This document shows, in pieces, positions 55,460 through 55,909 of a stretch of DNA of 64,000 bases. Under the pieces are notes generated by a model that saw only the letters and a program-made list of their open reading frames with translations, did no database searches and was not told the origin of the DNA. Numbering within the stretch: position 1 is the first letter of the stretch; each line of letters begins with the position of its first letter. The stretch comes from Escherichia phage YJin-2024a: sequence record PP534475.1. One strand, 5' to 3'. Position numbers and translations under genes: made by a program.

Positions 55460-55909
55460 TTAATTTATTAACTGTAAGCTTCTTTTAATTTCAGACCTTA
55501 CCTGCATCAAAAGAACTCCTAAAGTATTATCCCCGATGCCTCGGCAAACACCCCAATATGTATCTCCCCAGGTATTTCCTTCGATCAAAGTTGCATTTTT
55601 TGTTGCTAACAGTTTGTCTCTCAAATCAGGAATTGCAAACTTTAACCGTAAAAGCTCTAGCATTACATCATCTTTTACCTTATCCCAGTCAGAGCGCAGA
55701 GTTAATTTACGTCCTCTACGTTTGGCAACTCCTGCGTTTAGGGAGCGTAGTACATGGGCTACATTATCTTTTTGGTCTGATTTCATAGCCTGAAAAGCAT
55801 GTTCTACAGTATCAGCATGCCATATTTCATTTAGATATTCGAAAGTAATTGGTGATAAATAAAAGTTTGATAAGAAACTATAAGTACCTTTAAATTCAGT
55901 AATCTTCAT
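55460..55909 (-). CDS. NADAR / YbiA-like (DUF1768) protein
   Basis: GTYSFLSNFY ... EHAFQAMK ... NTWGDTYWG motifs typical of the family. Confidence 0.65.
   Translation of the reverse strand: MKITEFKGTYSFLSNFYLSPITFEYLNEIWHADTVEHAFQAMKSDQKDNVAHVLRSLNAGVAKRRGRKLTLRSDWDKVKDDVMLELLRLKFAIPDLRDKLLATKNATLIEGNTWGDTYWGVCRGIGDNTLGVLLMQVRSEIKRSLQLIN

What the first reader, a model, noticed from the sequence alone, without database searches (positions are those of the whole stretch)
55460..55909. NADAR / YbiA-like protein among the early genes
The 149 aa protein carries the hallmark motifs of the NADAR (DUF1768) family, members of which process ADP-ribose derivatives, and some have been reported to reverse ADP-ribosylation of guanine bases. 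In an early phage operon this is a plausible counter-measure against host ADP-ribosylating toxins such as DarT-type systems. I have not verified the substrate.
Basis: partly seen in the sequence, partly recalled or inferred. Interest (0 to 1): 0.6.

Follow-up and report, generated by a model that had tools for sequence, protein, structure and literature searches.

The report
Known phage anti-DarT1 NADAR enzyme (AdfN)

Summary
Window 55460..55909 on the minus strand is a 149-aa ORF that matches Pfam NADAR (79.1 bits, cutoff 35.1). All ADP-ribose-binding and catalytic residues are present, and the AlphaFold model (pLDDT 97.8) is a bare YbiA-type core.

The window is a T5-like phage (Tequintavirus, 99% identical to Salmonella phage SaI_NFG_5581). 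The protein is 146/149 identical to bas32_0066, the only NADAR ORF in phage Bas32, and 148/149 identical to the Bas33 copy. That protein is AdfN^Bas32. Johannesman et al. (Nat Commun 2025, PMC11825919) showed that it neutralises DarT1 toxicity in E. coli and restores plaquing of RB69, T5 and Bas25 on DarTG1 hosts. It had no effect on the thymidine-specific DarTG2.

This work adds some local detail:
- The gene is an accessory cassette, present in about 95 of about 447 T5-like records and absent from T5.
- It sits exactly between the T5.090 homologue and the early promoter P-H207.
- It is translationally coupled to the upstream gene by an ATGA overlap.
- It carries the Glu-type active site, unlike T4 AdfN (His) and DarG1 (Asp).

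Interest is low.

The parts
55460..55909 (-). adfN-type NADAR gene, 149 aa (stop codon included). It is the orthologue of bas32_0066 / AdfN^Bas32. Predicted catalytic and ADP-ribose-binding residues are E36, K43, R67, W75, K79, E110, D116 and W119.
   Evidence: ORF. Pfam NADAR 79.1 bits. Identity 146/149 to Bas32 and 148/149 to Bas33. AlphaFold pLDDT 97.8. Foldseek to YbiA TM 0.82 and to PnNADAR TM 0.76. Residue mapping onto 8BAU from the alignments, using the residue list in PMC11543638.
55906..56190 (-). Upstream 94-aa gene of unknown function (T5.090 homologue, phrog_4593). Its TGA stop overlaps the NADAR ATG (ATGA at 55906..55909), which suggests translational coupling. Its last ~70 nt (about 55906..55973) diverge from T5 and appear to belong to the inserted cassette.
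56218..56246 (-). Sigma-70-type promoter core TTGCTT-17 nt-TATAAT upstream of the 94-aa gene. It is identical to a stretch (T5 46363..46391) inside the promoter annotated in T5 at 46337..46411 and is the likely start of the bicistronic 94-aa/NADAR transcript.
   Evidence: Alignment; coordinates; T5 annotation. The generic promoter scan did not list it, because only 3 of 6 bases match in the -35 hexamer.
55402..55461 (-). The conserved stretch 55402..55461 is identical to T5 45991..46050, which lies inside the annotated early promoter P-H 207 (T5 45985..46059). Its -35/-10 core lies at 55423..55451. It begins at the NADAR stop codon, drives the downstream DUF7022 gene (T5.089 homologue), and marks the right edge of the NADAR insertion.

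Best explanation
The gene encodes an orphan antitoxin-like NADAR ADP-ribosylglycohydrolase, an orthologue of AdfN^Bas32. It is made early in infection, from a strong sigma-70 promoter, as the second cistron behind a 94-aa gene. When a host DarTG1 system is triggered, the DarT1 toxin attaches ADP-ribose to guanine bases in single-stranded phage DNA and blocks replication. The NADAR enzyme binds the ADP-ribose moiety in its conserved pocket (K43, R67, W75, K79, D116, W119) and cleaves the ribose-guanine bond, with E36 and E110 holding the distal ribose. This restores unmodified DNA so the phage can replicate. It needs no other phage factor and does not act on thymidine-ADP-ribose made by DarT2. 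Shown here: gene, family, fold, residues, orthology, genomic placement. Shown in the literature for the 98%-identical orthologue: DarT1 neutralisation, rescue of phages on DarTG1, no effect on DarTG2. Inferred: the catalytic chemistry (by homology with PnNADAR and DarG1), early timing, and that anti-DarTG1 is the natural role in this phage.
For: NADAR membership passes the curated Pfam threshold. The fold matches YbiA and PnNADAR with a high-confidence model. All eight residues that PMC11543638 lists as contacting ADP-ribose in PnNADAR (E43, K50, R79, W89, R93, E125, D130, W133) have counterparts; seven are identical and the eighth is R93 to K79 (alignments). E36, K43, E110, D116 and W119 are invariant in 40 homologues. 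The protein is 146/149 identical and syntenic with bas32_0066, which is the only NADAR ORF in Bas32. AdfN^Bas32 neutralises DarT1 and rescues RB69, T5 and Bas25 on DarTG1 but does not act on DarTG2 (PMC11825919). T5, the DarTG1-sensitive phage used there, lacks the gene. The closest relatives outside T5-like phages sit on large phage-like contigs beside dUTPase, dCMP deaminase, QueH and Thg1 genes, not riboflavin genes.
Against: No experiment was done on this exact sequence. In the text I could read, the published evidence for AdfN^Bas32 is ectopic expression; I found no knockout of the gene in Bas32 and no in vitro assay of that particular protein. By sequence and fold the protein is closest to E. 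coli YbiA (37% identical, TM 0.82; profile E 3e-37). YbiA has a reported riboflavin-intermediate N-glycosidase role and does not rescue DarT1 toxicity in vivo. Early expression is inferred only from homology with T5 promoters.
Confidence: 0.82

Rival explanations
1. It is a broad-spectrum eraser of nucleic-acid ADP-ribosylation. DarT1 is only one of its targets, and its main natural targets are other toxins that ADP-ribosylate guanine or cytidine in DNA or RNA, such as pierisin-like ARTs, YarT-like ARTs or as yet unknown defence ARTs.
For: The protein has the Glu-type last-strand residue (E110) and a bare YbiA/NADAR-type core. In PMC12945103, NADAR- and YbiA-family enzymes removed both G-ADPr and C-ADPr from DNA and RNA, whereas T4 NADAR (His type) and the DarG1 enzymes (Asp type) removed only G-ADPr. 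The authors of PMC11825919 themselves suggest that some phage NADARs may counter other ADP-ribosylating defences.
Against: No cytidine or RNA substrate has been tested for this orthologue. No defence system that ADP-ribosylates cytidine is known in enterobacteria. The demonstrated phenotype is against DarTG1.
Confidence: 0.12
2. It is a metabolic YbiA/COG3236-type N-glycosidase that destroys reactive riboflavin-pathway intermediates, or another small ribosylated metabolite, during infection. On this view the anti-DarT1 effect is a side activity.
For: E. coli YbiA is the closest solved structure and sequence. NCBIfam TIGR02464 'riboflavin biosynthesis intermediates N-glycosidase' is the best NCBIfam hit. 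Several GenBank records label the gene 'N-glycosidase' or 'GTP cyclohydrolase II'.
Against: The TIGR02464 score of 65.3 bits is below the curated cutoff of 73.7. There are no riboflavin genes next to it here or beside its closest relatives. The gene is dispensable: it is absent from T5 and about 80% of T5-like records, a pattern typical of counter-defence cargo. The near-identical protein neutralises DarT1 in vivo, whereas YbiA itself does not.
Confidence: 0.04
3. It is a 'swarming motility protein YbiA' that alters host behaviour, as many database records name it.
For: Only the inherited annotation in many phage records and the K-12 ybiA swarming phenotype mentioned in PMC11125620.
Against: The name is transferred from a mutant phenotype of a 37%-identical host protein. 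A strictly lytic T5-like phage has no obvious use for host swarming. A direct biochemical role has been shown for the orthologue.
Confidence: 0.01

Closest known systems
AdfN^Bas32 (bas32_0066 of Escherichia phage IrisVonRoten/Bas32, and the Bas33 copy); Johannesman et al., Nat Commun 2025, PMC11825919
   Same: 146/149 (Bas32) and 148/149 (Bas33) identical residues. The length is the same (149 aa). The neighbours are the same: rnh, the T5.090 homologue, NADAR, then the DUF7022 gene. The same ATGA overlap is present.
   Different: Three conservative surface-type substitutions relative to Bas32 (T9A, N49D, K104E). The host background is a Salmonella phage rather than an E. coli K-12 phage. Nothing suggests a functional difference.
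AdfN^T4 (T4 gp30.3), the 'phage NADAR' family
   Same: Same superfamily and the same published role: an orphan NADAR that removes guanine ADP-ribose and counters DarTG1.
   Different: Only remotely related: hhalign probability 85.8% over 61 N-terminal columns, and 24% identity in a MAFFT alignment. T4 has His where this protein has Glu110. AdfN^T4 needs a T-even infection context and cannot neutralise DarT1 alone, whereas AdfN^Bas32 can. The paper infers an independent acquisition.
E. coli K-12 YbiA (PDB 2B3W), YbiA family of NADARs
   Same: Best structural and sequence match: TM 0.82, 37% identity, profile E 3e-37. It shares the Glu in the last strand and the bare core without extensions. YbiA hydrolyses guanosine-ADPr in vitro.
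   Different: YbiA did not protect against DarT1 in vivo and is credited with riboflavin-intermediate N-glycosidase activity. The phage protein misses the TIGR02464 cutoff, lacks the first ~15 residues of YbiA, and is phage accessory cargo.
DarG1 (DarT1-associated NADAR antitoxin, BC4488 family; G. lovleyi 8BAT)
   Same: Same substrate and reaction: removal of ADP-ribose from guanine in ssDNA, neutralising DarT1.
   Different: DarG1 has Asp in the last strand and an N-terminal beta-beta-alpha extension, and it is encoded next to darT1. Here there is Glu110, no extension and no darT neighbour. Structural similarity is weak: TM 0.52, E 0.69.

Membership tests
NADAR superfamily (Pfam PF08719 / DUF1768) | Profile match above Pfam's gathering score | tested here: met
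   79.1 bits against a cutoff of 35.1, E 5.9e-22, covering profile positions 9-163 of 163.
NADAR superfamily (Pfam PF08719 / DUF1768) | YbiA fold: alpha-helical core flanked by two small beta-sheets | tested here: met
   AlphaFold2 model with pLDDT 97.8 and pTM 0.91 has helices H35-41, H47-54, H59-67, H75-90, H94-101 and H129-148 and small strands at 21-32 and 107-125. Foldseek to 2B3W gives TM 0.82; to 8BAU, TM 0.76.
NADAR superfamily (Pfam PF08719 / DUF1768) | Conserved ADP-ribose-binding and catalytic residues (PnNADAR E43, K50, R79, W89, R93, E125, D130, W133) | tested here: met
   The counterparts are E36, K43, R67, W75, K79, E110, D116 and W119, from the alignments. The PDB chain numbering is offset by +2 from the paper's numbering, and all eight residues fit that offset. 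R93 is replaced by K79, as in YbiA. The residue list comes from PMC11543638.
AdfN^Bas32 orthologue group (T5-like phage anti-DarT factor NADAR) | Near-identity and synteny with the characterised gene | tested here: met
   146/149 identity to bas32_0066, with the same flanking genes. bas32_0066 is the sole NADAR ORF in the Bas32 genome.
AdfN^Bas32 orthologue group (T5-like phage anti-DarT factor NADAR) | Neutralises DarT1 and rescues phages on DarTG1 hosts; no effect on DarTG2 | not testable with these tools
   Reported for AdfN^Bas32 in PMC11825919. Not measured for this sequence.
T4 gp30.3-type 'phage NADAR' family | Histidine replacing the conserved last-strand glutamate; clusters with T-even gp30.3 | tested here: not met
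   The protein has Glu110 in LIEGN. The relation to T4 gp30.3 is only a partial remote hhalign match, probability 85.8% over 61 columns.
DarG1 / BC4488 family of NADAR antitoxins | Aspartate in the last strand, an N-terminal extension of the YbiA core, and a position next to darT1 | tested here: not met
   The protein has Glu110 and starts directly at the core (149 aa). Its neighbours are the T5.090 and T5.089 homologues, with no ART gene. Foldseek to 8BAT gives TM 0.52, E 0.69.
YbiA family sensu de Souza and Aravind (Glu-type NADAR) | Glutamate at the last-strand catalytic position | tested here: met
   E110 aligns with YbiA's LVE and PnNADAR E125. The family definition is quoted.
Riboflavin-intermediate N-glycosidase (NCBIfam TIGR02464, equivalog domain) | Score above the curated equivalog cutoff | tested here: not met
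   65.3 bits against a cutoff of 73.7.
Riboflavin-intermediate N-glycosidase (NCBIfam TIGR02464, equivalog domain) | Fusion to, or neighbourhood with, riboflavin biosynthesis genes (ribA/ribD) | tested here: not met
   It is a stand-alone 149-aa protein. Neighbours here and around the closest relatives are nucleotide-metabolism and unknown phage genes.

The most novel reading that the evidence does not exclude
This T5-type AdfN keeps the Glu-type NADAR/YbiA active site, unlike T4 AdfN (His) and DarG1 (Asp). It may therefore be a broader eraser that also removes ADP-ribose from cytidine and from RNA, protecting the phage against ADP-ribosylating defences other than DarTG1. Its placement in a small variable cassette slot of the T5-like early region would then mark that slot as a place to look for further counter-defence genes.
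Probability: 0.3. Interest if true: 0.4.

Novelty: already known. Interest (0 to 1): 0.15.

Why it matters
The finding matters mainly for annotation and host-range prediction. The gene is still labelled 'hypothetical', 'swarming motility protein', 'GTP cyclohydrolase II' or 'N-glycosidase' in most T5-like phage records, although its orthologue is a demonstrated anti-DarTG1 factor. Its presence in about one fifth of T5-like records, and its absence from T5, should predict which of these candidate therapeutic Salmonella and E. coli phages can plaque on DarTG1-carrying strains. It opens no new question beyond those already raised in the 2023-2026 NADAR literature.

Tried and rejected
- I looked for the paper's own accession for AdfN^Bas32, but no supplementary files are held. 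I established identity indirectly instead: the locus tags bas32_00xx show that IrisVonRoten is Bas32, and an HMM scan of the whole Bas32 genome finds a single NADAR ORF.
- The HIDEN-SEQ preprint deals only with T4 adfN/adfM and says nothing about T5-like phages.
- PADLOC gives only a weak hit to the candidate-defence model PDC-M42C (28 bits). NCBIfam NF053876 'DS32_2 NADAR family anti-phage protein' scores 44 bits against a cutoff of 240. Neither supports membership of a defence system.
- A second NADAR or paralogue in the window: none found.
- A DarG1-like architecture was rejected: no N-terminal extension, Glu rather than Asp, weak structural match.
- The paper suggests archaeal affinity. 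In my genome scan the closest cellular homologues (up to about 53% identity) come from many bacterial phyla, and archaeal hits are at 41-44%. The closest relatives of all (53-60%) are on phage or phage-like contigs. I did not build a tree, so this stays open.
- The generic promoter scan is uninformative here: 8 sites found against 7.3 expected. The promoter calls rest on identity with promoters annotated in T5.
- The plus-strand ORFs inside the gene (55536..55793 and 55558..55788) are treated as antisense artefacts.

Full report
**1. Observation**

The ORF list shows an ATG-started ORF at 55460..55909 on the minus strand, 149 aa, exactly as reported.

- The start codon overlaps the stop of the upstream 94-aa ORF (55906..56190) in the sequence ATGA.
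- The protein is basic (pI 9.2). Its G+C content is 36%, similar to its neighbours.
- It matches Pfam NADAR PF08719 at 79.1 bits (cutoff 35.1, E 5.9e-22) over nearly the whole profile.
- It matches PHROG 1017, a family of unknown function, at 3.8e-44.
- In the PDB by sequence it matches E. coli YbiA (2B3W, 2.4e-15) and the Phytophthora nicotianae NADAR (8BAU, 5e-7).
- An HMM built from 40 homologues finds only this one segment in the six-frame translation of the window.

**2. What the window is**

The region is 99.2% identical to Salmonella phage SaI_NFG_5581 (Demerecviridae, Tequintavirus) and 97-98% identical to many other T5-like phages.

On the minus strand the gene order is: nrdA, nrdB, frd, thyA, a DUF3307 membrane protein, a 93-aa ORF, RNase H, a 94-aa ORF, NADAR, a DUF7022 protein, two small ORFs, then an exonuclease. 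This is the early nucleotide-metabolism and replication arm of T5.

**3. The gene is an accessory cassette**

T5 itself has no NADAR. There the T5.090 gene is followed directly by the annotated promoter P-H 207 and by T5.089.

Alignment of the window, T5 and Bas32 and motif coordinates show the following:
- Window 55402..55461 is identical to T5 45991..46050, which lies inside the annotated P-H 207. This stretch begins at the NADAR stop codon.
- The upstream promoter core TTGCTT-17-TATAAT (window 56218..56246) is identical to T5 46363..46391, inside a promoter annotated in T5.
- The last ~70 nt of the T5.090 homologue diverge between phages that carry NADAR and T5. The protein ends ...SKGAYQYIYTAEEAKDAGRKK in the window and ...NKGAYQYVSDEEQAKMVGR in T5.

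The cassette therefore consists of the 3' end of the upstream gene plus the NADAR ORF, slotted between two conserved early promoters with no terminator between them.

The NADAR sequence occurs in 95 phage records at 96% nucleotide identity or more. The surrounding region occurs in about 447 records. The gene is thus present in roughly a fifth of T5-like records; the counts include GenBank/RefSeq duplicates.

**4. Structure and active site**

I aligned 40 homologues from the 1,034 found. AlphaFold2 on that alignment gives a model with mean pLDDT 97.8 and pTM 0.91. Foldseek against the PDB returns:
- E. coli YbiA: TM 0.82, 37% identity.
- PnNADAR with ADP-ribose bound: TM 0.76, 28% identity.
- G. 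lovleyi DarG1 NADAR: only weakly, TM 0.52, E 0.69.

The protein is the bare YbiA-type core without the N-terminal extension of DarG1.

Schuller et al. (PMC11543638) list the PnNADAR residues that contact ADP-ribose: K50, R79, W89, R93, W133, D130, E43 and E125. In the HMMER alignments all eight fit the PDB chain with a +2 numbering offset. They correspond here to K43, R67, W75, K79, W119, D116, E36 and E110. Of these, E36, K43, E110, D116 and W119 are invariant in the 40-sequence alignment.

The residue that discriminates subfamilies is Glu in the YbiA/NADAR types, Asp in DarG1 and His in T4 gp30.3. Here it is Glu110.

**5. Identity with a characterised protein**

Johannesman et al. (Nat Commun 2025, PMC11825919) searched the BASEL phages and found a NADAR in Bas32 and Bas33, 'Markadamsvirinae closely related to T5'. 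They named it AdfN^Bas32. According to the paper:
- It neutralised DarT1 toxicity in E. coli without phage infection.
- It restored plaquing of RB69, T5 and Bas25 on DarTG1 hosts to full titre.
- It did not affect DarTG2 defence against T5.

Escherichia phage IrisVonRoten carries locus tags bas32_00xx, so it is Bas32. Its gene bas32_0066 lies in the same position as the window's gene and encodes a protein 146/149 identical to it. The Bas33 copy is 148/149 identical.

A scan of the complete Bas32 genome with the NADAR profile, and with T4 gp30.3, finds bas32_0066 as the only NADAR ORF. It is therefore AdfN^Bas32. The three differing residues (positions 9, 49 and 104) are not catalytic or invariant positions. 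Nucleotide differences among the three orthologues are mostly synonymous.

**6. Mechanism**

By homology, the protein binds the ADP-ribose attached to guanine N2 in single-stranded phage DNA and hydrolyses the N-glycosidic bond. This reverses DarT1's block on replication.

- Shown here: family, fold, residues, orthology, placement.
- Shown in the literature for the orthologue: the in vivo phenotypes.
- Inferred: the chemistry for this protein, early timing, translational coupling, and that DarTG1 is the natural target in Salmonella hosts.

**7. Rivals**

*Riboflavin-intermediate N-glycosidase.* This is suggested by closeness to YbiA and by TIGR02464 being the best NCBIfam hit. However:
- The score (65.3 bits) is below the curated cutoff (73.7).
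- There are no rib genes nearby.
- The gene is dispensable cargo.
- YbiA itself fails to protect against DarT1 in vivo, while the near-identical AdfN^Bas32 does protect.

*Broad-spectrum eraser.* This reading is not excluded. Glu-type NADAR and YbiA enzymes also remove cytidine-ADPr and act on RNA, whereas T4 NADAR and DarG1 do not (PMC12945103).

*'Swarming motility protein' and 'GTP cyclohydrolase II'.* These labels in GenBank are transferred annotations without support.

**8. Relatives**

- Outside the 96-100% identity T5-like cluster, the next relatives are at most 60% identical.
- One of them, in the Epseptimavirus vB_SenS_UTK0009, lies between rnh and the T5.090 homologue, on the other side of T5.090. 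That suggests a second, independent insertion in the same module.
- Relatives at 53-57% identity lie on 150-170 kb phage-like contigs.
- In cellular genomes the best matches are about 50% identical and spread over many bacterial phyla, with a few archaea at 41-44%.
- T4 gp30.3 is only a remote relative.

**9. Verdict**

The gene is an orthologue of a published and functionally tested anti-DarTG1 factor, so the novelty is 'already known' and the interest is low. The residual value lies in annotation, in the precise description of the cassette, and in the untested possibility of a wider substrate range.

Noticed in passing
L006 2489-2938 (Salmonella phage vB_SenS_UTK0009, Epseptimavirus): A second NADAR allele, 60% identical to the window's protein, sits between RNase H and the T5.090 homologue, on the opposite side of T5.090 from the insertion seen in the window. 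This looks like an independent acquisition in the same early module.
   Followed up: partly
window 56743-57471 (minus strand): Two further accessory genes lie between thyA and RNase H: a DUF3307 membrane protein (57118..57471, phrog_2470 'moron/host takeover') and a 93-aa ORF (56743..57024, phrog_5321). T5 has only a 133-nt promoter-bearing spacer there. Bas32, Bas33 and Eps7 each carry different contents. The thyA-to-T5.089 stretch is therefore a variable cargo region.
   Followed up: partly
L002 3001-3447 versus L004 2199-2645: PMC11825919 says Bas32 and Bas33 encode identical NADAR proteins, but the deposited genomes differ at two residues (A9T and E104K; 147/149 identical).
   Followed up: yes
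window 50421-50492 (minus strand): Rfam tRNA model hit at 34.2 bits (cutoff 29) that ARAGORN did not call. It has a canonical T-arm (GGUUCGAGUCC) but a poor cloverleaf: folding z-score -0.38. It lies upstream of tRNA-Arg, in the region that T5 annotates as the 719-nt stable 'RNAX' of unknown function. It may be a degenerate tRNA or a tRNA-like element.
   Followed up: partly
window 52608-53321: Annotation conflict. The closest record (PQ488695) annotates the plus-strand 237-aa ORF (52608..53321), whereas T5 (T5.085, labelled 'tail fiber protein') and Bas32 (bas32_0072) annotate the overlapping minus-strand 212-aa ORF (52650..53288), which runs in the same direction as its neighbours.
   Followed up: no
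window 53595-54296 and 54868-55410 (minus strand): Database names are inconsistent. The 233-aa protein matches the Rv2179c-like 3'-5' exoribonuclease domain and a PHROG exonuclease family but is called 'metallopeptidase' in many records. The DUF7022 protein is called 'tail length tape-measure protein' or 'baseplate wedge subunit' in some records. The NADAR gene itself is variously named 'swarming motility protein', 'GTP cyclohydrolase II', 'N-glycosidase', 'antitoxin-like enzyme' or 'hypothetical'.
   Followed up: partly
window 38270-49918 (minus strand): A block of 23 tRNA genes called by ARAGORN, typical of T5-like phages. Rfam recovers 22 of these (not tRNA-Ala at 41261..41339) plus the extra hit at 50421..50492, also 23 in total.
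   Followed up: no
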